A DNA stretch of 64,000 nt. Source: Escherichia phage JEP8. A program made the position numbers and the translations under genes. The stretch's first letter is position 1; every line of letters begins with the position of its first letter. Below are positions 1-47,024 of the stretch, one piece after another. Location: the sequence record MT764208.1; one strand, 5' to 3'. The notes beneath the pieces are model-generated. The model was not told the DNA's origin. It saw nothing but the letters and a program-made list of their open reading frames with translations, and made no database searches.

Positions 1-657
1 CGCGATCATATAAGATACGGTTTCACTTGCCAGCCATACAGCCTTACGGCGAGTGAAGCTCAGTTTGTAATCACCGAAGTCAGTAGCAACCAGTTTCATG
101 TTGTCTTTACGAATAAAGAAATGGAAGTCGGCGGTTCCGGTATATTCGCCCATGTCAAGACAAAACATCTCATTAGGATTGTTTTTGTCAATCTCTTCCC
201 AGCCTTTGATCATCAGACGACCATCAATCGGTAGAAATTCAAGGCGGTCCACTTTAAGCTGATTGCTCATTTTCATAAGCTGTTTCAGATCGTCGTTGCT
301 CAATTCGTAATCTACATCGCTTGCAGGTGGAGTAACTCGGCCTTTCGGTGATACGATAGCGGCAGCACTAGCACCAGGATAGTTAATTTTCAGTCGATCG
401 TTAGACACACGAATGTTTCCAGTGCGGTTATCAACCGTAATATCTGCTTCATCGCCTACCAGATTCAGAATACCCAAGAAAGAGTTAAGATCGTAAATCC
501 CAATTTCGTGTTCCAGTTCTTGATTCAGAGTCGCTTCACCATATACAACGTTTGTCATGTTTTTGGTGATCAGCACATTTCCTTTTTTCAGGATGATACC
601 TGGGTTAATAGCGGAAAAGTTTTTCAGGGTAGCAATGGTTTCTTTAGTCAGTTTCAT
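1..657 (-). CDS. 45: Sliding clamp gp45, C-terminal end cut by window edge
   Basis: Not in ORF track (no stop in window). Minus-strand translation from ATG at 655-657 reads MKLTKETIATLKNFSAINPGIILKKG...IYDLNSFLGILNLV, matching T4 gp45 as recalled; lies next to gp46 as in T4. Confidence 0.8.
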   Translation of the reverse strand, partial: MKLTKETIATLKNFSAINPGIILKKGNVLITKNMTNVVYGEATLNQELEHEIGIYDLNSFLGILNLVGDEADITVDNRTGNIRVSNDRLKINYPGASAAAIVSPKGRVTPPASDVDYELSNDDLKQLMKMSNQLKVDRLEFLPIDGRLMIKGWEEIDKNNPNEMFCLDMGEYTGTADFHFFIRKDNMKLVATDFGDYKLSFTRRKAVWLASETVSYMIA

Positions 658-687
658 CAAATCACCTTTATCATGTTAATCAATTAA

Positions 688-1065
688 TTACGGGTTCACT
701 TCGTGCTCATTTTGAATCTTTAGCATTCTTTCGATAAATTTTTTCTCGGCTTCCTTATCGGATGAGTGAGTATACTTCAATCCAATGTAAGCTGTCAAGT
801 ATTGTTGCAGAGCATAGACAGTAACAGGATTCTTTGCGGTCTTTTTTCCGTCGAGATATACCAGATCACCACGAACATCAAACGCAAGTTTACGACGAAT
901 CACATCATCAACAAATTTATCTAGGACAAAATACCACTCAATACACTCTATCCCGTGACGGTAGTTCATTACATCATTATCTTTGATATAATCAAACGGA
1001 ATATGACATAATTTACTATTTTGTAGGATGAATAGCATTTGTTCTTTTAAGCTCATACGTTTCAT
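688..1065 (-). CDS. Hypothetical protein (rpbA/45.2 position)
   Basis: ORF track 688-1086; start moved to ATG after SD GGGAAG (MKRMSLKEQ...). No recognisable motif. Confidence 0.45.
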   Translation of the reverse strand: MKRMSLKEQMLFILQNSKLCHIPFDYIKDNDVMNYRHGIECIEWYFVLDKFVDDVIRRKLAFDVRGDLVYLDGKKTAKNPVTVYALQQYLTAYIGLKYTHSSDKEAEKKFIERMLKIQNEHEVNP

Positions 1066-4785: not shown

Positions 4786-5811
4786 CTAACTTTTTGCGCT
4801 ATTTACTTCGGCTAAAAGCTCATCGGAGATACGCTTAACTGCCGCAAGTTCTTCCGGTTCTAGGTTTTGTTCTTCCAGATATTCATAGACCATCTGAATA
4901 GTGCTTTTAACTTCAATAACACCTGTTTCCTGTGATGCGCTACTCTCCAGCTTATGGACCACTTTTAGCTTGTGTACAACGGCCTCTAACGCGCTTTCTA
5001 ACTTAGTTAACCCATTATCAGCGACCGTTGCAATTAGGCGCACACTAAGCCCTTTAAAGCGTTCTACATCGATTTTATCATCTGACGGGTAAGTGATACG
5101 CACATGATAAGTTTTGTCATTCTGGATAAACTCCTTTTTGTGTGTATCTGTATCGAATACCCAAAAACCACGCGGATCATTTTCGTCGCCAGCCGTTAGT
5201 GTGTATGGTGTACCGATATACGTTACGTTACCGCCATCACTGATAGTATGAAAGTGACCGGAAAACACTTCACGGTATTTCTTGAGGAAGTCCGCGCTAT
5301 AACCTTCGGATTTTAACCCTTTATAGAAATAGTAGCCGGACAATTCCCAATGGCCTACACAATATTCGCTGAATGAATTTTGAATAAACTCTAAAACCTC
5401 GGATTTATTGTCATCACAAAACCACGGGAACAGGTCGAATGATACCCCATCAAAGGTAACTGTTTCCGGCTTATCAATAACCTTAATGCAATCATACTGG
5501 CTTAACACTTCGCGCGGTGCGTTAGGCTGGATCTTATTGCGTTTAAACATATCATGATTCCCGACCGTGATATAACAGGTGATTCCTGCCTCTTCCAGTA
5601 ATGGGATGACCTTAGTACGGTTAAATTTCATGGTTTCATGTGTGATAGCCTTGCGACAATCAAACCAATCCCCTGTTTGAATCCATATCTTAATACCATT
5701 TTCTTTAGAATAATCAACAGCTTTCTTGATCGTGTCTAAAATATACTCATGCACCCACGGATCATCGCCACCGATACCAGTATGCAGATCACCCAAAAGC
5801 AAAATTTTCAT
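4786..5811 (-). CDS. 47: Recombination endonuclease subunit gp47 (SbcD/Mre11-like nuclease)
   Basis: 341 aa; calcineurin-like phosphoesterase motifs GDLH, GDWFD, GNHD, GHFH; SD GAGGAAGAG; pairs with gp46. Confidence 0.9.
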   Translation of the reverse strand: MKILLLGDLHTGIGGDDPWVHEYILDTIKKAVDYSKENGIKIWIQTGDWFDCRKAITHETMKFNRTKVIPLLEEAGITCYITVGNHDMFKRNKIQPNAPREVLSQYDCIKVIDKPETVTFDGVSFDLFPWFCDDNKSEVLEFIQNSFSEYCVGHWELSGYYFYKGLKSEGYSADFLKKYREVFSGHFHTISDGGNVTYIGTPYTLTAGDENDPRGFWVFDTDTHKKEFIQNDKTYHVRITYPSDDKIDVERFKGLSVRLIATVADNGLTKLESALEAVVHKLKVVHKLESSASQETGVIEVKSTIQMVYEYLEEQNLEPEELAAVKRISDELLAEVNSAKS

Positions 5812-5855
5812 AGTCTCTTCCTCTCTTCGTTTTCGATGCTCTCACTATATCATAG

Positions 5856-18035: not shown

Positions 18036-18509
18036 CTATCTTAAACTTTTTATGAATTGTTTCTTATACTTCTTCGTGATCTCTTCTCTTGTATCAGCGT
18101 CGCAGTAATCGAAACCTTCTGCGTCCATAATAGCAACCATCTCCGCGCGGGTCAAGCGTGAAAATAGTTTTACTTTATCAACGGCATATTGAGGATGTAA
18201 ATGATTGTTGGTGTAGTCTCCTTTGATGTAATTAACATAGTTTGTAGCCCAAACAACGAAATCAGCACCTAAAGCACCAACACCAAACCGCTTAAAGTCT
18301 CCGGTCAACGATCCTTCTAGGCGGTTGCAACACGAATGAAGCAATCCCCTTACGCGGCCTTGCCCTTTCCCATCTAGATCATGATCATGGTCAAGATGGT
18401 TTTTGCTCATATCCTCAAAAAGTGGCAATTGACAAAGGGGGCAAATGCCCCCCTGTTTTTCGAATAGTTCTTGTTTGTACTCTTTAGCACTCTTAGCAGT
18501 CAGTAACAT
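18036..18509 (-). CDS. 49: Endonuclease VII (Holliday junction resolvase) gp49
   Basis: 157 aa from ATG (MLLTAKSAKEY) after SD GGAGGGTGA; Zn-binding CPLC...HLDHDHDLDG...GLLHSCCN resembles T4 endo VII. Confidence 0.85.
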   Translation of the reverse strand: MLLTAKSAKEYKQELFEKQGGICPLCQLPLFEDMSKNHLDHDHDLDGKGQGRVRGLLHSCCNRLEGSLTGDFKRFGVGALGADFVVWATNYVNYIKGDYTNNHLHPQYAVDKVKLFSRLTRAEMVAIMDAEGFDYCDADTREEITKKYKKQFIKSLR

Positions 18510-20374: not shown

Positions 20375-20585
20375 ATTCTAAGAAATATTCTGGAACGATA
20401 TAACCGTTAAAGTCATTGCACTTATAAAAATGTGGTGCATTCAATGCTGGATGAGCATTAGTAAAGAGTTTACCCTCTAGAAACAGAATGTAATTAATCG
20501 GTCTAATACCGACAGAATCAGGATCTAAACCTTTTTCTTTCAGTTCAGCCAGCGTTAAAACTCGTCCAGATCGTAACTTAGCCAT
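20364..20585 (-). CDS. Hypothetical protein
   Basis: 73-aa ORF. Confidence 0.4.
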   Translation of the reverse strand: MAKLRSGRVLTLAELKEKGLDPDSVGIRPINYILFLEGKLFTNAHPALNAPHFYKCNDFNGYIVPEYFLEFDD

Positions 20586-26361: not shown

Positions 26362-26390
26362 TTTGATTCTCCTTTGTTGTCGATGTATGC

Positions 26391-26419
26391 ATTATGCTAT
26401 ACCCTATTCCGGTTGTCAA
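26391..26419 (-). promoter_or_regulatory. Early promoter (TTGACA-17-CATAAT)
   Basis: Minus strand TTGACA accggaatagggtatag CATAAT. Confidence 0.5.
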
Positions 26420-26430
26420 CACCTAAAAAC

Positions 26431-26460
26431 GAAAAAGCCACCCTTTCGGATGGCTTTTGA
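26431..26460 (-). terminator. Rho-independent terminator (possibly bidirectional)
   Basis: Hairpin agccatccgaaagggtggct flanked by A-run and T-run. Confidence 0.55.
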
Positions 26461-26688
26461 TTATATTTTATTCTAATCCATTTGTATAGTAGTGTTTGAA
26501 TCGACCTTTGCTAAACTCGTTAAACATAGTAACCAATTTACCACCACTTTCCAATGATAGCACTTCCTCGTCTTAGACGGGTCTTCCGATTCGGCAGTAA
26601 TTGAACACGCGAAAGTATGAGGAAGCCAAATAGTTGTGTTAATGCTAGTATTCTTTTACTTCTGGTATGCATCCCACAGTGACTAACA

Positions 26689-27087
26689 TTAAGCCAGTCG
26701 AGTGAGTTTATAAATTGTTTTAAAGCATAGAGCTTTGATATCGTCTAAAACGCTCTGTAACGAGCTATCAACATCATTATAAATCTCACTAGCCATTTGC
26801 GTTAACTCTTGCAAATAGGCAATTTCGCTCATCTCCTTGCGGACGACCAACGTTGGCTGATAACGACCAGTGATCCCAATATTGGTTTCAGTGAAATCAT
26901 CAACCAATTCTTGCATTTCAAGATAGAACTCTTCTAGAGCCTTATGTTTTGCATAAGATCCAGGACCAGTTACTCCAAAATGCGCAGAATGCATATAAGT
27001 AACACTCATCAGACATTCACCGATAAAGCGGTCAACTTTATTAGCTTTCCCCTCTTCGGACGTCTTTAGAAAATCAATGAATTTCAT
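26689..27087 (-). CDS. Hypothetical protein
   Basis: Start moved to MKFIDFLKTSEEG after SD GGAGAA. Confidence 0.45.
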   Translation of the reverse strand: MKFIDFLKTSEEGKANKVDRFIGECLMSVTYMHSAHFGVTGPGSYAKHKALEEFYLEMQELVDDFTETNIGITGRYQPTLVVRKEMSEIAYLQELTQMASEIYNDVDSSLQSVLDDIKALCFKTIYKLTRLA

Positions 27088-27376
27088 GTTCTTTATTCTC
27101 CATATTATGCAACATAACAAACTGTTGTGCGGCATATTCCCCCATAATAAAACACTGCTTAGAATCCATACATTTACTACGAGCATACATCTTCATAATA
27201 TGGGCATGAAATTTCTGGCTGGTTTCAATGGAAGGAGATATTTTGTTTACATATACTATCATTGCACCGTCGAAATAATCAGTAAAGTCACCAGTTGGAT
27301 CATATTGATCAGCACTGACGCTTCCGACCGCAGTAAAGCATATTGCCGCTGTTAGAGTTTTACGAATAAATGACAT
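27074..27376 (-). CDS. Secreted/periplasmic protein with signal peptide
   Basis: 100 aa; N-terminal MSFIRKTLTAAICFTAVGSVSA looks like a cleavable signal peptide. Confidence 0.5.
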   Translation of the reverse strand: MSFIRKTLTAAICFTAVGSVSADQYDPTGDFTDYFDGAMIVYVNKISPSIETSQKFHAHIMKMYARSKCMDSKQCFIMGEYAAQQFVMLHNMENKEHEIH

Positions 27377-32303: not shown

Positions 32304-32720
32304 TTAGAGAGATTCGGTAAAGGTACGAGCGATAACATCACGTTGCTGGTCTGGAGTCAGACTATTGAAGCGCACTGCGTAACCAGAAACGCGAATTGTA
32401 AGCTGCGGGTACTTCTCAGGATGTTCAACAGCGTCCAGCAACATTTCTCGTAACAATACATTAACATTCAAATGCTGACCACCTTCGACAACCGGAGCAC
32501 CATTATCTACAATGACAGGACGGAAGCTAGTTGTGTGCAGTGCCAGCGAATCGACGTCTTCTGCGGTGATCACATGGTCTTCTGCGAAAGTTTTACTAAC
32601 AATTACTTTAGCACCGATCAGTGCTTTCGGTTCGGATACCAGAATCATAGGCGCGAAGTGTCCACCAATAATAGTACCTTTATGCTCACCTTTCATGATT
32701 TGAATTGCTTTAAATTCCAT
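32304..32720 (-). CDS. grcA: Autonomous glycyl-radical cofactor (GrcA/YfiD-like)
   Basis: 138 aa; C-terminus [11 protein letters not shown]...[39 protein letters not shown] nearly identical to E. coli GrcA as recalled; glycyl-radical motif RVSGYAV. Confidence 0.85.
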
Positions 32721-33341: not shown

Positions 33342-33403
33342 GGTAAAGTCTCCAGTGAACGGGGAGAGATCCTTAGATTGTCTCCCCGTTGATGGTTAAT
33401 ATT

Positions 33404-33793
33404 TTATTTTGGATCTGGGTATTTGCTGTGTGGTAATTGTAGATGAGGACCATCTTTAAAACTAGTCCAATCCCCACCCCATTCAACAGGAACACCCAAT
33501 TCTCGACCAGCTTGTTTAAATGCATCAGCGATCATGCGGTAATATTTCATGTTCCATGTATCTTTATCTTTCGGATACGCTACAACGTCAACCGCGAAAC
33601 CGTGAAGATGACGAGATTTCATAGTCTTAGATTTACCTTCCGCAACATATTTCTTTTGCGTTTCTAGACTACGCACACCTTCCGTAATACCAAAATCGAC
33701 CGGAGTCAGTTCTAATGCACGATGAACGACTTTTACCAGGTCTGGATGTACACCAACAAGCCGATCTTTGCTTCTTTGAGATAATCTAAACAT
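33404..33793 (-). CDS. Endolysin, L-alanyl-D-glutamate peptidase (peptidase M15, T5-like)
   Basis: 129 aa; VHPDLVKVVHRALELTPVDFGITEGVRS...SRHLHGFAVDV...WGGDW resembles T5-type endolysin; HxxxxxxD and H motifs for Zn binding. Confidence 0.75.
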   Translation of the reverse strand: MFRLSQRSKDRLVGVHPDLVKVVHRALELTPVDFGITEGVRSLETQKKYVAEGKSKTMKSRHLHGFAVDVVAYPKDKDTWNMKYYRMIADAFKQAGRELGVPVEWGGDWTSFKDGPHLQLPHSKYPDPK

Positions 33794-33821
33794 TATTCAC
33801 CCCCTTTGTGAGTGATAATAT

Positions 33822-34013
33822 TTAGATTCCTGCAATCCTGCATAGAGTTCTTGTATTAGCACCAATCAGGATAGCATTGACTACAACCATTCCCCAATCA
33901 ACCCACGGATTATTATAAATGCTAAATCCGTTTGTTATGCCAAATACAAGCATTCCGGTACACATACTCAGAGCAATAATCAACATCACGGTAAAACCAA
34001 ATGCAAATTTCAT
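33822..34013 (-). CDS. Small membrane protein
   Basis: 63 aa, two hydrophobic helices. Confidence 0.45.
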   Translation of the reverse strand: MKFAFGFTVMLIIALSMCTGMLVFGITNGFSIYNNPWVDWGMVVVNAILIGANTRTLCRIAGI

Positions 34014-34014
34014 A

Positions 34015-34281
34015 TTATTTTCCTTTTCTCTGTTTACGTTTATAAAAGTAATACATTACCTCATCGCGTCCGGTGATCCAACATGCTAGGGCAGTAAACA
34101 GGTTTACAATTCCCAACACACCTACTGACGCGGCGCTGTCAACAGACATAGGAACAGTAAAGGCCATAGCTAACATAGCAATGCCACAAATGACATTAAG
34201 CACCATTATAATAAGACCGAAGAAAACCATTGTCAATCCTCCCAAATAAGAAAACCAACAATCACGCCAGTGATAAGACAT
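34015..34281 (-). CDS. Small membrane protein
   Basis: 88 aa, hydrophobic, basic C-terminus. Confidence 0.45.
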   Translation of the reverse strand: MSYHWRDCWFSYLGGLTMVFFGLIIMVLNVICGIAMLAMAFTVPMSVDSAASVGVLGIVNLFTALACWITGRDEVMYYFYKRKQRKGK

Positions 34282-34412
34282 GATGCGCCGCTAATAAGAC
34301 AACCAGCACCAAGTGATTCCCACCAGATCAGAGAAGCGACAATAACGCAAATTCCCCAGACTACCGCAATCACAACATAGGCAAGGGTCGCCCAAAACAT
34401 ATATTTGTTCAT
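34233..34412 (-). CDS. Small membrane protein (59 aa)
   Basis: Below ORF-track cutoff; ATG overlaps the upstream stop in ATGA; MNKYMFWATLAYVVIAVVWGICVIVASLIWW... Confidence 0.4.
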   Translation of the reverse strand: MNKYMFWATLAYVVIAVVWGICVIVASLIWWESLGAGCLISGASCLITGVIVGFLIWED

Positions 34413-34597
34413 AATAAACCCAACTCACCAAACAAATAAGAAAAAAGCCATATCAACAGAAACGAGGCAATTGATCCGACAAGCAAAATGATATTAGAGA
34501 ATCCACCGTCTACCCAGGCAACAAAACAGAATACGCTAGTATAGAAGCATAAACCCATTACAAAGCATACTATAAGCAACCATAGATAAAACGTCAT
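34409..34597 (-). CDS. Small membrane protein
   Basis: 62 aa, hydrophobic. Confidence 0.45.
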   Translation of the reverse strand: MTFYLWLLIVCFVMGLCFYTSVFCFVAWVDGGFSNIILLVGSIASFLLIWLFSYLFGELGLL

Positions 34598-34658
34598 AGA
34601 AAGTCCTCCAGCGAGATAAATTAGTGCGGGTAGTGGAATGTACTACCCGCTTTGTTAA

Positions 34659-34817
34659 TCAACGCAGAGCTTCTTCTAGCGCGATCCCAAACCATCCACA
34701 AACAACGCCCATACAGACAGCTACAAGAAGATTCATTCTCTCTTTAGGGATCATTGCAATCATAACAACAACCATACAGAAAGCCATTACCATTGATGTT
34801 AACATTTGTTCAACCAT
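34659..34817 (-). CDS. Small membrane protein (52 aa)
   Basis: Below ORF-track cutoff; SD AAGGTG; MVEQMLTSMVMAFCMVVVMIAMIPKE... Confidence 0.4.
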   Translation of the reverse strand: MVEQMLTSMVMAFCMVVVMIAMIPKERMNLLVAVCMGVVCGWFGIALEEALR

Positions 34818-34819
34818 TA

Positions 34820-35152
34820 TCACACCTTTAAAGTCATAGACGCATAAACATTAATGCCAGGCCAGTTAGGATCGCAATTATACTCAACATCCCACAAATA
34901 AAGCGGTTTAGATGTATCAGCCAAGTTTTTAAAATCTTCTACCCACATTTCAAGGCTATATGATGGATAAACTAGGCTATCATATCCGCCGTAACGTTGG
35001 CCTACTGGTCGGTCAGTAAAAACTACCTCAAGATCCGGTAATTCTTTTTCAAGGATAACCGCCAGCGCATAAATCAGACGGTCTTCCTTGTTACGCTGCC
35101 GAAGGACCGTTGTCAGTTGGTTTTTCTGGTTCACTAGCAAGCACCTCCACAT
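34820..35152 (-). CDS. Hypothetical protein (start uncertain)
   Basis: ORF track 34820-35158 begins with GTG; overlaps the upstream ORF. Confidence 0.35.
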   Translation of the reverse strand: MWRCLLVNQKNQLTTVLRQRNKEDRLIYALAVILEKELPDLEVVFTDRPVGQRYGGYDSLVYPSYSLEMWVEDFKNLADTSKPLYLWDVEYNCDPNWPGINVYASMTLKV

Positions 35153-43276: not shown

Positions 43277-43831
43277 ATGCTCTTTTCTTTCTTCCCTGCC
43301 ATTGAATACAACGGCAAGATGATTACTGACATTGTGCGCAATTACCGCGCATATTTCAACGCAATAATTTCTGATTATAACATACAAACATATTACATTC
43401 AAGGTAGTCCACGACCGGAACAAGTTGCATATGAAGTATACGGAAACCAACAACTTTATTGGATCTTGCTGATGCTTAATGACGTATACGATCCGTTCCA
43501 TGACTGGATCACCGATCAAGAGACAGCATATGAATCAGCCGAACAACGATATGCAAACGTAGGAGGAAATCAAGTATTATACCACGTTGATATTGACGGA
43601 AACAAGTATTGGAATCTTACCGAATATCCGAAAGGATCAAGCAATTGGTATGATAAAGGGGATATTCATCATCGTCATTTGCAGTTTCAAGGTGCATTAT
43701 CGGCGGTAGACACACTGGAAGATGCGATCCTCCGCAATGAGGAACGACGCAAGATCAAGATCATAGATCCTACACAAATTAAACAATTTATTAACGCATT
43801 CATTCGAGAAATGGAAAAGGCTGATGTGTAA
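43277..43831 (+). CDS. 53: Baseplate wedge protein gp53
   Basis: 184 aa; MLFSFFPAIEY...YYIQGSPRPEQVAYEVYGNQQLYWILLM resembles T4 gp53 as recalled; precedes gp5. Confidence 0.85.
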   Translation: MLFSFFPAIEYNGKMITDIVRNYRAYFNAIISDYNIQTYYIQGSPRPEQVAYEVYGNQQLYWILLMLNDVYDPFHDWITDQETAYESAEQRYANVGGNQVLYHVDIDGNKYWNLTEYPKGSSNWYDKGDIHHRHLQFQGALSAVDTLEDAILRNEERRKIKIIDPTQIKQFINAFIREMEKADV

Positions 43832-43842
43832 GGTGATTAATT

Positions 43843-45642
43843 ATGCTAATGTTTAATAACTCCGTTAAATGGTTTACCGGAATTGTAGAAAACAGGGAAG
43901 ACCCATTAATGCTGGGGCGTGTTCAGGTTAGGATTCATGGTATACATCCCTCGCTATCCGCGCACGGTGACATTCAAGGTCTTCCAACCGAAGATCTATT
44001 ATGGATTACGCCAGTACAAGATATTACAAGCGCGGCGATCTCCGGTATAGGTCAAAGCCCTACTGGTATTGTTGAAGGTTCAATGGTATTTGGTTTGGCT
44101 TTAGATGAACGTTATTTAAACTGCGTTATTCTTGGTACTATTGCCGGACAATATACAGAGAAACCACTCACTACAGAAGGTTTTTGCGACCCTTCTGGTG
44201 CATATCCTCGTTATATTGGTAATGATGTTAATATTCTTGCTCGTGGCGGTATTAACCCAGAAACCGGGCAAACAACAAAACCTGATAGTGTCTATATTCG
44301 AGATGAAAACACTGGAGTTGCAGTAAATCCAGACGACGAGCCATTAGACCAAATTCCGGTTGATGATAATCCTGATTTTACAATAGAAAAAATGCTGCGG
44401 GGCGATGAGGGATATCGCGAGAAATGGTATCTTGATTCAGAAGGATATCCGACAATAGGCATCGGGCATTTGATCATTTATAAGAAAACCAGTGATCTTG
44501 ATATTATCAATAATGAACTTTCTAAGCTGGTAGGGCGTGAAGTTACAAACGGAAGACTTACCGCCGAAGAAGTTAGTAAAGTATTTGCCGACGATATAGA
44601 AAAGACTCGTCGTGATATGCGCAAACATCCACGAATTGCACCTGTCTATAATAAATGTAATGCCTCACGTCGTATGGCATTAGAAAATATGGCGTTTCAA
44701 ATGGGTGTTGGTGGATTGGGTAAATTTAAGAATAGTCTTGCTGCGATGTTAGCGGAAGAATGGAAACAAGCCTATGATGGATTACGTCAATCGGTATGGG
44801 CTAACCAAACTCCAGGACGATCCAGCCGTGTTTCTAAAATTATTCTTACTGGCAACTTAGAATCATATGGCGTAATTGCTCCAAAGAAAGAGGAATCAAT
44901 TTCTGATGATCCGCGAGCACGTTTGAGAAATGCCCGTATTGCTGCCTATAAGACGCAGAGAGCAGAAGAAGACCCAGAAGCACCGTTTACCCCACAAGAC
45001 ACACGAATCATGTTTAAAGAGCCTAAGAGTTCGTATTCTGCAAGGTATCCTTATAACCATGTGTACGAGTCAGAGAGCGGTCATATTATCGAGATTGATG
45101 ATACTCCTTCTCATGAGCGATATCATCGTAAACATCCTTCGGGTACATTTGAAGAAACCAGACCGGACGGAACGAGGGTAGAAAAGATTGAAGGCGATGA
45201 TTATCTGATCGTTAAACAAGGCCGGAAAGTAAACGTTAAGGGTAATTTGCAAGTTGTTGTTGAAGGTGACGCGCAAGTTTATTATATGGGTAATGTGATG
45301 CAAACCGTTGATGGTAACGTCACTGAATTTATTCGTGGTAATGTTAATCAGACCGTTGAAGGTACTGCTAACATGCATGTTGTAGGTGATGTTACCGCTC
45401 AGCTTGACGCTAATTTGACGGCTAACGTCAAGGGTAATGCTGAATTAATGATCGAGGGTAACACTACCGAAACAATTAAAGGTAACTATGATTTAACCGT
45501 TGAGGGTAATTTTAATATGACCGTCAATGGCACTAAATCAGATCAGGTTAATGGTGACTGGTCCCGTAATTGTGGTGCAAGCGTTAAAGATATTGCATCT
45601 GGTACAGTTAAAATTGATGGTAGCCGTATTGATCTTGGGTGA
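43843..45642 (+). CDS. 5: Baseplate hub/central spike protein with lysozyme domain gp5
   Basis: 599 aa; N-terminal OB-like part, T4-lysozyme-like segment (YLDSEGYPTIGIGHLI), C-terminal VxGxxxxxV beta-helix repeats. Confidence 0.9.
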   Translation: MLMFNNSVKWFTGIVENREDPLMLGRVQVRIHGIHPSLSAHGDIQGLPTEDLLWITPVQDITSAAISGIGQSPTGIVEGSMVFGLALDERYLNCVILGTIAGQYTEKPLTTEGFCDPSGAYPRYIGNDVNILARGGINPETGQTTKPDSVYIRDENTGVAVNPDDEPLDQIPVDDNPDFTIEKMLRGDEGYREKWYLDSEGYPTIGIGHLIIYKKTSDLDIINNELSKLVGREVTNGRLTAEEVSKVFADDIEKTRRDMRKHPRIAPVYNKCNASRRMALENMAFQMGVGGLGKFKNSLAAMLAEEWKQAYDGLRQSVWANQTPGRSSRVSKIILTGNLESYGVIAPKKEESISDDPRARLRNARIAAYKTQRAEEDPEAPFTPQDTRIMFKEPKSSYSARYPYNHVYESESGHIIEIDDTPSHERYHRKHPSGTFEETRPDGTRVEKIEGDDYLIVKQGRKVNVKGNLQVVVEGDAQVYYMGNVMQTVDGNVTEFIRGNVNQTVEGTANMHVVGDVTAQLDANLTANVKGNAELMIEGNTTETIKGNYDLTVEGNFNMTVNGTKSDQVNGDWSRNCGASVKDIASGTVKIDGSRIDLG

Positions 45643-46217: not shown

Positions 46218-46283
46218 TGGCTGGCGGGTGTCGATGCCCCGCCGTCATAAATAGTTATATAATGATTTAATATGAGGTGTTTT

Positions 46284-47024
46284 ATGATTAAAGTGCATGA
46301 CGATTTCAAAGAACTTTATAATGTATGCTCTGAACGTTTTTATTATGATGAAACGAGCGGAACAATTAGACGAAAATATGATTGTAAGAGCAATCATTAT
46401 AAAGCGGGTGATGTAGTAGGATATAAAAGAAAACAAAAAAGAACAAATAGTGAAGATGATGTGTGCTATCTGTTTACTAAGATTGATGGAGTTTCTTATT
46501 CAATTCAACAAATTGTCTTCTTGCTTACCGACGGATATATACCAAATTGCATCGATCATATTAACAGAGACACACTAGATAATCACCGTGAAAATCTTCG
46601 TGATGCATCGCGAAGCGGAAATGCTCGCAATAAGTGCAAAGTATATAAAAATGGTTTCGCCTCTTCCGATTACATTGGTGTGTCTAAGCGGGGTTCTGGA
46701 TTTAGGTGTCGTATTAGAATAAACCATGTTATTGCATATGATGAAACGTTCGAAAATGAAACATCTGCTGCATATGCATATAACGTAGAATGTATAAAAT
46801 TAGGTGTCAGTGAGTATACCAACTTTAATAAATTTGAAGACGAAGAATCTGTTAGGAAACTTTACGAAAAAGAGAAAGAAAATAAAGAGTTTCAAGAATA
46901 TTGGAAGGGAACACATAAACAGGGTAAAAGATGGGGTGCTAAAGTTAAGAGTGTGCGTTTGGGTACATTCGAAACAAGGGAAGAAGCTAGACTAGCTATA
47001 ATTCGCTACAAAGAGGGGTTTTGA
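46284..47024 (+). CDS. Free-standing HNH homing endonuclease with AP2-like DNA-binding domains
   Basis: Start moved to ATG 46284 after SD GAGGTG; HNH motif [26 protein letters not shown]; two AP2-like segments ([19 protein letters not shown]; [22 protein letters not shown]). Inserted between gp5.1 and gp5.4. Confidence 0.75.

What the first reader, a model, noticed from the sequence alone, without database searches (positions are those of the whole stretch)
33404..33793. Endolysin is an M15 L-Ala-D-Glu peptidase rather than a T4-type muramidase
The protein resembles the T5-type endopeptidase endolysin, not T4 lysozyme e, implying replacement of the lysis enzyme in an otherwise T4-syntenic context.
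Basis: partly seen in the sequence, partly recalled or inferred. Interest (0 to 1): 0.35.

Follow-up and report, generated by a model that had tools for sequence, protein, structure and literature searches.

The report
Known RB49-type M15 endolysin gene
This gene encodes the already well-studied cell-wall-cutting enzyme of RB49-like (T4-related) coliphages, a zinc peptidase used in place of T4 lysozyme; the only possibly new point is that its mRNA leader seems to carry the same "translate only late" hairpin switch that T4 uses for its unrelated lysozyme gene.

Summary
Window 33404..33793 (minus strand) is a 129-aa ORF. It differs by one residue (R3K) from EndoRB49, the biochemically characterised L-alanoyl-D-glutamate peptidase of phage RB49 (PDB 23RI), and is 95% identical to LysECD7 (PDB 8Q2G). 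It matches Pfam PF13539 (M15C) and keeps the published zinc ligands H62, D69 and H117, catalytic D114, and W109.

The window is a Krischvirus genome segment, collinear with RB49 20.6-84.5 kb. T4 lysozyme e has no free-standing homologue in the window or in RB49; only the gp5 baseplate lysozyme domain matches it. The gene lies in the same interval (vs.6/vs.8 to 57B) that holds e in T4. RB49 keeps the T4-type holin t, antiholin rI and spanins. The "replacement" reading is therefore supported, but its direction is unresolved.

"T5-type" holds only at family level. Identity to the T5 enzyme is 38%. The nearest relatives are 9NA/ChiX-like enzymes, and the T5 Ca2+ loop is absent.

One added finding seems unreported in the literature I could search. 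A strong hairpin sequesters the ribosome-binding site and AUG. A late-promoter box (TCTAAATA) sits in its 5' arm. The geometry matches that of T4 gene e, and three other Straboviridae genera show the same logic.

The parts
33404..33793 (-). Endolysin CDS (129 aa plus stop): M15C Zn2+ L-alanoyl-D-glutamate peptidase, the EndoRB49 orthologue with R3K
   Evidence: H62, D69, H117, D114 and W109 are all present, as defined for EndoRB49 in PMC10487532.
33798..33806 (-). Shine-Dalgarno region (AAGGGGGUG, -13..-5), lying in the 3' arm and loop edge of the leader hairpin
   Evidence: Direct reading, and the fold.
33776..33835 (-). Leader hairpin (core stem 33831..33810 paired with 33802..33783). It pairs the late-promoter box and following bases with the SD, the AUG and codons 2-4.
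   Evidence: MFE is -21.3 kcal/mol, z = -6.6, and 0 of 200 shuffles fold as well. Opening the SD/AUG costs 17.6 kcal/mol, rank 3 of 115 putative genes in the window. The hairpin is conserved in 6 other Krischvirus genomes.
33819..33826 (-). Late-promoter-like box TCTAAATA at -33..-26. The predicted late transcription start is about 33813 (-20).
   Evidence: It is the same octamer as the feature annotated 'late RB49 promoter' in NC_005066. Only 17 such boxes occur in 128 kb of both strands, and 10 of them lie 20-35 nt upstream of an SD plus start codon. The T4 rule places the box at -13..-6 from the start site (PMC1524935).
27074..27376 (-). rI antiholin (lysis-inhibition) gene, the only other dedicated lysis gene inside the window
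   Evidence: PHROG 1246 'lysis inhibition', E 4e-26. RB49 annotation. Its translation start is also sequestered, behind a TATAAATA box.
44383..44868 (+). T4-lysozyme-fold domain inside baseplate protein gp5, the only T4 e homologue. It is a virion entry enzyme, not the endolysin.
   Evidence: tblastn with T4 e gives 42.6% identity over 162 aa, E 5e-37. RB49 gp5 annotation.

Best explanation
The ORF is the soluble endolysin of a Krischvirus (RB49-like, T4-related) coliphage. It is a single-domain Zn2+ metallopeptidase of MEROPS subfamily M15C. It hydrolyses the L-Ala-gamma-D-Glu bond of the peptidoglycan stem peptide.

It has no signal peptide or SAR (signal-anchor-release) segment. It should therefore accumulate in the cytoplasm and reach the wall only when the T4-type holin T forms holes. 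Timing would be modulated by RI, and the PseT.3/PseT.2 spanins would then disrupt the outer membrane. It fills the role, and the genomic interval, that the GH24 muramidase e has in T4.

Expression is probably gated as in T4 e. Early read-through transcripts fold a 19-22 bp hairpin that buries the SD and AUG. Transcripts started at the late promoter embedded in the 5' arm (TCTAAATA, start about -20) lack that arm and are translatable.

Shown here or in the literature: enzyme family, catalytic residues, bond specificity of the near-identical RB49 enzyme, absence of e, synteny, and the existence and statistical strength of the hairpin and box. Inferred: the in vivo role as sole endolysin, holin dependence, and the translational gate.
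For: Identity and chemistry:
- establish the family and the near-identity to EndoRB49.
- PMC8140593 shows L-Ala-D-Glu cleavage by EndoRB49.
- PMC10487532 defines H62/D69/H117 and D114/W109 and reports no Ca2+ regulation.
- 8Q2G has the LysECD7 sequence (PMC6466606).

Context:
- The window is collinear with RB49 at 95-98% identity.
- Synteny with the T4 tk-vs-e-57B interval.
- T4 e matches only gp5.
- RB49 t matches PF11031 Phage_holin_T at E 5e-61, and the spanins and rI are annotated or confirmed (PMC6139136 lists RB49 in the T4 spanin families).

Gate:
- Hairpin z = -6.6.
- Rank 3 of 115 for the cost of opening the RBS. Gene 49, a known T4 case, comes out at rank 6 and serves as a positive control.
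- Box statistics.
- Opening energy falls from 17.6 to 5.0 kcal/mol between read-through and predicted late RNA. T4 e gives 16.4 to 4.7, with its box at -34 against -33 here.
- The same logic, with unrelated leader sequences, occurs in Gualtarvirus, Pseudotevenvirus and Slopekvirus. It is absent from the non-T4 relative 9NA (z = +1.2).
Against: - I found no genetic evidence (knock-out or amber mutant) that this gene is required for lysis in any Krischvirus.
- Holin and spanin genes are outside the window. They are inferred from a 95-98% identical relative.
- The gate rests on folding predictions and a 7/8 promoter match. No transcript mapping is available.
- Leaders are too similar within Krischvirus, and not alignable between genera, so covariation cannot be tested.
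- RB49's own hairpin is much weaker (-12.5 kcal/mol, z = -2.6).
- High RBS-opening energies also occur in some non-Straboviridae homologues next to terminators (maximum 19 kcal/mol). Energy alone is therefore not diagnostic.
- The stop codon of the upstream ORF lies inside the 5' arm, so translational coupling could open the hairpin on early RNA.
Confidence: 0.9

Rival explanations
1. The protein is a non-lytic M15 peptidase, such as a VanY-like D-Ala-D-Ala carboxypeptidase (as some GenBank records annotate it) or a ChiX-like secretion helper. The true endolysin would lie elsewhere.
For: The Pfam model is named 'D-alanyl-D-alanine carboxypeptidase', and phage W115 carries that annotation. The second-best distinct PDB relative is Serratia ChiX, at E 5e-37. 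vs.1 has a marginal SLT-domain similarity reported in PMC1524935.
Against: The 99.2%-identical RB49 enzyme cuts L-Ala-D-Glu and lyses cells (PMC8140593, PMC10487532). LysECD7 is bactericidal (PMC6466606). In 9NA the homologue sits between holin and spanin genes. No other soluble muralytic gene replaces e in RB49. vs.1 coexists with e in T4, so it is not a substitute.
Confidence: 0.03
2. The leader hairpin is not a temporal gate. It would instead be a translational-coupling device, opened by ribosomes terminating at the upstream membrane-protein ORF. Alternatively it is an mRNA-stabilising or processing structure, and the TCTAAATA match is fortuitous.
For: The upstream ORF stop (TAA, 33822..33824) lies inside the 5' arm, so a terminating ribosome would melt it. 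The box is a 7/8 match. The hairpin is weaker in RB49. Other intergenic hairpins without obvious function exist nearby, for example 33359..33390.
Against: T4 e has the same geometry: the nudE stop is at the foot of the hairpin. There the early RNA is nevertheless translated about 100-fold less (PMC3014915). Boxes are rare (0.13 per kb per strand) and mostly sit upstream of starts. TCTAAATA is the octamer annotated as a late RB49 promoter. Four genera place a box so that the predicted late start removes the inhibitory arm.
Confidence: 0.3
3. The M15 gene is ancestral at this locus in Straboviridae, and T4-like Tevenvirinae acquired e. That would be the reverse of the first reader's 'replacement of T4 lysozyme'.
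For: M15C endolysins lie upstream of vs.8/vs.6...vs...tk in Krischvirus, Gualtarvirus, Pseudotevenvirus and Slopekvirus. PMC3014915 lists many T4-related phages with no gene e.
Against: The Straboviridae M15 enzymes are not each other's closest relatives. Krischvirus versus the RB43 group is 46-47% identical, against 61-67% to siphovirus or prophage enzymes. The RB43 group also carries a T5-like loop insertion. This suggests at least two acquisitions or later exchange. No rooted phylogeny was made.
Confidence: 0.35

Closest known systems
EndoRB49 (phage RB49 NP_891673; PDB 23RI) and LysECD7 (phage ECD7 ASJ80195; PDB 8Q2G)
   Same: Same gene at the same locus. Identity is 128/129 to EndoRB49 and 123/129 (95%) to LysECD7, counted from the alignment. 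All catalytic residues are identical, the length is the same, and both are single-domain proteins.
   Different: Residue 3 is Arg (AGA) instead of Lys (AAA). The change is outside the catalytic core. At the RNA level it adds a G-C pair to the leader hairpin.
Phage T5 endolysin (L-alanoyl-D-glutamate peptidase, PDB 2MXZ/8P3A), prototype of M15C
   Same: Same fold family. It shares the H-x6-D...D-x2-H zinc and catalytic motif, the conserved Trp, and the bond specificity (PMC10487532).
   Different: Identity is only about 38%. The T5 Ca2+-binding regulatory loop is missing, and EndoRB49 is not Ca2+-regulated (PMC10487532).
Salmonella phage 9NA gp57, related prophage endolysins, and Serratia ChiX (PDB 5OPZ)
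   Same: These are the closest non-Krischvirus relatives: 61-67% identical for the phage enzymes and 50% for ChiX. Length and motifs are the same. In 9NA the gene sits inside a canonical holin-endolysin-spanin cassette.
   Different: Here the gene is not in a cassette. As in T4, the lysis genes are scattered. The 9NA leader has no RBS hairpin.
T4 lysozyme (gene e, GH24 muramidase) and its translational control
   Same: It has the same biological role and lies in the same genomic interval. The leader architecture is also the same: a late promoter embedded in an RBS-sequestering hairpin, with the box at -34 in T4 and -33 here, and opening energies of 16.4 to 4.7 in T4 against 17.6 to 5.0 kcal/mol here (PMC3014915).
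   Different: The protein fold and the bond cleaved are unrelated: glycosidic in T4, peptide here. The leader sequences are not alignable. T4 has two boxes and the window has one.

Membership tests
MEROPS M15C / Pfam PF13539 phage L-alanoyl-D-glutamate peptidases | Profile match above the curated threshold | tested here: met
   PF13539 scores 46.8 bits against a cut-off of 25. PHROG 465 endolysin, E 2e-68.
MEROPS M15C / Pfam PF13539 phage L-alanoyl-D-glutamate peptidases | Zn2+ ligands His-x6-Asp...His, plus catalytic Asp and conserved Trp | tested here: met
   H62, D69, H117, D114 and W109 are present in the translation. These are the residues defined for EndoRB49 in PMC10487532.
MEROPS M15C / Pfam PF13539 phage L-alanoyl-D-glutamate peptidases | [quoted passage not shown] | not testable with these tools
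   Shown by NMR for the 99.2%-identical EndoRB49 (PMC8140593). Not shown for this exact sequence.
T5-type endolysin in the strict sense (Ca2+-activated EndoT5) | Ca2+-binding regulatory loop near the conserved Trp | tested here: not met
   The loop insertion is absent in the alignment. EndoRB49 is described as lacking Ca2+ regulation (PMC10487532).
T4 lysozyme e / GH24 (PF00959) | Sequence or profile similarity to T4 e | tested here: not met
   No Pfam hit other than PF13539. T4 e aligns only to gp5, at 44383..44868.
Canonical holin-dependent cytoplasmic endolysin | No signal peptide or SAR domain, and a holin present in the genome | tested here: inconclusive
   The N-terminus MFRLSQRSKDRLVGVHPD has no hydrophobic stretch (direct reading). 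Holin t (PF11031, E 5e-61) and the spanins were found only in the RB49 record, outside the window. rI is inside the window.
T4 e-type translational gate (late promoter inside an RBS-sequestering hairpin) | Stable structure pairing the SD and/or AUG in read-through RNA | tested here: met
   MFE -21.3 kcal/mol, z = -6.6. Opening energy 17.6 kcal/mol, rank 3 of 115.
T4 e-type translational gate (late promoter inside an RBS-sequestering hairpin) | A late promoter placed so that late transcripts lack the inhibitory 5' arm | tested here: met
   TCTAAATA lies at -33..-26 and the predicted start is at -20. Late RNA opening energy is 5.0 kcal/mol. This is a sequence prediction only.
T4 e-type translational gate (late promoter inside an RBS-sequestering hairpin) | Early transcripts read into the gene yet are poorly translated | not testable with these tools
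   There are sigma-70-like matches upstream, for example 34236..34208 at 11/12, and no convincing terminator between them and the gene. No expression data exist.

The most novel reading that the evidence does not exclude
The endolysin slot of T4-related phages may keep a conserved regulatory design whatever enzyme fills it. That design is a late promoter embedded in an RBS-sequestering hairpin, which silences early read-through mRNA. It appears with unrelated leader sequences on M15C peptidase genes in Krischvirus, Gualtarvirus, Pseudotevenvirus and Slopekvirus, and on the GH24 gene e of T4. In this window it is also predicted for rI. This would be repeated convergent re-creation of one control circuit after non-orthologous gene displacement. 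I found no report of it: the 2010 T4 review examined only gene e leaders and set RB49 and RB43 aside as lacking e.
Probability: 0.55. Interest if true: 0.4.

Novelty: already known. Interest (0 to 1): 0.2.

Why it matters
The main finding adds nothing new. RB49-type phages are known to use an M15C peptidase endolysin, which has solved structures and is being developed as an antibacterial (LysECD7).

The modest added value is regulatory. If the predicted hairpin and late-promoter gate is real, selection in T4-like phages acts on when the endolysin is translated, independently of which enzyme is used. That is a simple, testable case of convergent evolution of an RNA switch. It would also matter to anyone engineering or swapping lysis genes in T4-like therapeutic phages.

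Tried and rejected
- I searched IMG/VR for relatives to obtain diverged Krischvirus leaders for covariation. The best 80 loci were all 52-67% identical non-T4-like contigs with no Krischvirus among them, so they served only as a control set.
- A covariation test of the hairpin was not possible. Six other Krischvirus leaders are almost invariant, and leaders of other genera are not alignable.
- RBS-opening energy alone was rejected as a discriminator. Some non-Straboviridae homologues reach 19 kcal/mol because a terminator abuts the start, and some of my start assignments there may be off by a few codons.
- An exact TATAAATA search found only 5 sites, fewer than the shuffles gave. I therefore used the relaxed box NNTAAATA with at most 1 mismatch, in line with the published RB49/Aeh1 late-promoter variation (PMC1524935).
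- T4 vs.8 did not detect the RB49-annotated 'vs.8' at E below 1e-3, so that gene name rests on the GenBank annotation only.
- The 2018 EndoRB43/RB49 paper and the 2002 RB49 genome paper are not held in the library. I could not check whether they mention the leader structure.
- Reading the hairpin as an intrinsic terminator was rejected, because no U-tract follows it.
- RegB control was rejected, because the SD contains no GGAG.

Full report
**What is at the coordinates.** Window 33404..33793 holds a 129-codon ORF on the minus strand, with ATG at 33793 and TAA at 33406..33404. Its only Pfam match is PF13539 Peptidase_M15_4, at 46.8 bits against a cut-off of 25. It matches PHROG 465 'endolysin' at E 2e-68. 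Against the PDB it is nearly identical to 23ri_A (E 2e-87) and 8q2g_A (E 9e-83). More distant hits are Serratia ChiX (5opz, E 5e-37) and the phage T5 L-alanyl-D-glutamate peptidase (2mxz/8p3a, E 1e-20).

**Where the window comes from.** The window is collinear with Escherichia phage RB49 (Krischvirus, Straboviridae) positions 20566..84490, at 95-98% identity. The translated ORF differs from RB49 NP_891673 only at residue 3, R versus K. The 23RI sequence equals the RB49 protein. The 8Q2G sequence equals the phage ECD7 endolysin ASJ80195, known as LysECD7 (PMC6466606).

**What the enzyme does.**
- Its zinc ligands (H62, D69, H117), catalytic D114 and essential W109 have been defined. Unlike EndoT5, it is not Ca2+-regulated (PMC10487532).
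- All of these residues are present in the window protein.
- The N-terminus has no hydrophobic segment, so this is a soluble cytoplasmic endolysin that should need a holin. That last step is inference.

**'Rather than a T4-type muramidase'.** T4 gene e protein was taken from NC_000866. It aligns to a single place in the window, 44383..44868 (+), at 42.6% identity. It also aligns to a single place in the whole RB49 genome. In both cases the target is the lysozyme domain of baseplate protein gp5. There is no free-standing e. A 2010 review already lists RB49, phi-1, RB43 and RB16 as 'no apparent gene e' (PMC3014915).

**Synteny.**
- In the window the order is rI.-1, rI, tk, tk.4, vs, vs.1, regB, nrdC.11, vs.6, 'vs.8', endolysin, about 25 small ORFs, 57B, 57A, 1, 3.
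- T4 has tk ... vs.6, vs.7, vs.8, denV, ipII, ipIII, e, nudE ... tRNAs ... 57B, 57A, 1, 3.
- The M15 gene therefore lies in the same hyperplastic interval as e.

**Other lysis genes.** RB49 keeps a T-type holin (PF11031, E 5e-61), the PseT.2/PseT.3 spanins and rI (PMC6139136). Only rI (27074..27376) is inside the window.

**How 'T5-like' it is, and the direction of exchange.**
- Identity to the aligned part of EndoT5 is 38%, and to ChiX 50%.
- Identity to Salmonella phage 9NA gp57 is 61%, and reaches 66-67% to prophage-like IMG/VR contigs.
- Identity to the Gualtarvirus (Providencia phage PSTRCR_127) enzyme is 60.5%, but only 46-47% to the Pseudotevenvirus and Slopekvirus (RB43-like) enzymes. 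Those RB43-like enzymes carry a loop insertion where T5 has its Ca2+ loop.
- In all four Straboviridae genera the gene sits upstream of the vs.8/vs.6...vs...tk block.
- The data fit non-orthologous displacement at a conserved slot, probably more than once. They do not show which enzyme came first.

**An additional feature: the leader.** The 60 nt around the start codon fold into a long hairpin of -21.3 kcal/mol. Its z-score is -6.6, and 0 of 200 shuffles fold as well. The hairpin pairs AAUCUAAAUAUUAUCACUC with GGGUG-AAUAAUGUUUAGAUU. It therefore buries part of the SD, the AUG and codons 2-4.
- I made a crude gene call of 115 putative genes in the window. The free energy needed to open -13..+4 is 17.6 kcal/mol for the endolysin, rank 3, against a median of 5.1.
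- Ranks 1, 2 and 6 are gene 53, rI and gene 49. Gene 49 is one of the documented T4 examples of this control (PMC3014915), so it acts as a positive control.
- The 5' arm contains TCTAAATA (33826..33819). This is the same octamer as the feature annotated 'late RB49 promoter' in NC_005066.
- Boxes of this type (NNTAAATA, at most 1 mismatch to TATAAATA) occur only 17 times in both strands of the window. Ten of them lie 20-35 nt upstream of an SD plus start codon. A chance occurrence in this 30-nt leader has a probability of about 0.004.

**Comparison of the leader with T4 e.** The T4 rule places the box at -13..-6 from the transcription start (PMC1524935). With that rule the late RNA would begin at about -20 (33813), lack the 5' arm, and need only 5.0 kcal/mol to open the RBS. 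T4 gene e gives almost the same numbers: box at -34, start at -21, and 16.4 falling to 4.7 kcal/mol. In T4 this hairpin reduces lysozyme synthesis from early read-through RNA about 100-fold (PMC3014915).

**The leader in other genera.**
- Gualtarvirus has AATAAATA at -32, and opening energy falls from 9.8 to 2.1 kcal/mol.
- Pseudotevenvirus has CGTAAATA at -48, lying between an anti-SD and the SD, and opening energy falls from 10.2 to 3.1 kcal/mol.
- Slopekvirus has CATAAATA at -49, and opening energy falls from 9.7 to 5.9 kcal/mol.
- The z-scores of these folds are -2.9 to -5.3.
- The non-T4 relative 9NA has no such structure (z = +1.2).

**Limits of the leader evidence.**
- There are no transcript data.
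- Covariation cannot be tested. Krischvirus leaders are almost invariant, and leaders of different genera are not alignable.
- RB49's own hairpin is weaker, at -12.5 kcal/mol and z = -2.6. The window carries AGA (Arg3) where RB49 has AAA (Lys3), and it has extra outer pairs.
- Some non-Straboviridae homologues also have high opening energies because of adjacent terminators.
- The stop codon of the upstream ORF lies in the 5' arm, so translational coupling is a live alternative. T4 e shares that geometry, however.
- I found no paper containing both 'EndoRB49' and 'promoter'. The two most relevant papers are not held in the library.

**Verdict.** The enzyme is EndoRB49/LysECD7, with solved structures, and the lack of gene e in RB49-type phages has been noted since at least 2010. 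The finding is ordinary. The possibly unreported part is the predicted T4 e-like translational gate on the non-orthologous gene. It deserves a simple experimental check but is of modest general interest.

Noticed in passing
window 46272..47024 (+); also window ~5808..5812: A 250-aa ORF with an HNH motif and an AP2-like C-terminus is preceded by the late-promoter-like box CATAAATA at 46246. It forms an insertion of about 790 bp between gp5.1 and the PAAR gene relative to RB49. Conversely, RB49's HNH endonuclease gene after gene 47 (RB49 26380-26934) is absent from the window. These look like homing-endonuclease presence/absence polymorphisms.
   Followed up: partly
window 27074..27376 (-), 43277..43831 (+), 18036..18509 (-): rI (antiholin), gene 53 and gene 49 have the most (or nearly the most) strongly sequestered ribosome-binding sites in the window, at 20.1, 24.9 and 11.7 kcal/mol. 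rI and gene 53 have an exact TATAAATA box in the leader. The gene 49 leader shows only a weaker TTAAATA-like sequence that did not meet the box criterion. The same late-only translation design may therefore also apply to the lysis-inhibition gene.
   Followed up: partly
window 33359..33390: A strong GC-rich hairpin (about -21 to -23 kcal/mol in 55-nt windows) fills the 62-nt gap between the endolysin stop and the vs.8 start. No U-tract follows it on the coding (minus) strand, so it is not a canonical terminator. It may be a processing or stability element.
   Followed up: no
window 33822..34823 (-): Five consecutive small (54-88 aa) very hydrophobic ORFs lie directly upstream of the endolysin. 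Each belongs to a separate PHROG of unknown function. The last one's stop codon lies inside the endolysin leader hairpin.
   Followed up: partly
window 32304..32720 (-): The vs.6 homologue is a GrcA/YfiD-like autonomous glycyl-radical protein. It matches PF01228 at E 1.5e-16 and is 58% identical to T4 vs.6.
   Followed up: partly
window 33785..33787 (codon 3 of the endolysin): Arg3 (AGA) replaces Lys3 (AAA), which is found in RB49, ECD7, UPWr_E1, G37-3, AV108 and JSE. The best GenBank phage match is 99.2%, so no identical protein was seen. The G pairs with the C of TCTAAATA. Together with upstream changes, this strengthens the hairpin from -12.5 to -21.3 kcal/mol.
   Followed up: partly
L093 (phage JSE, EU863408) 458..847: The JSE endolysin as deposited diverges from all other Krischvirus copies after residue 103 and loses the conserved EWGGDW motif. 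Possible causes are a sequencing or frameshift artefact, or a recombinant C-terminus.
   Followed up: no
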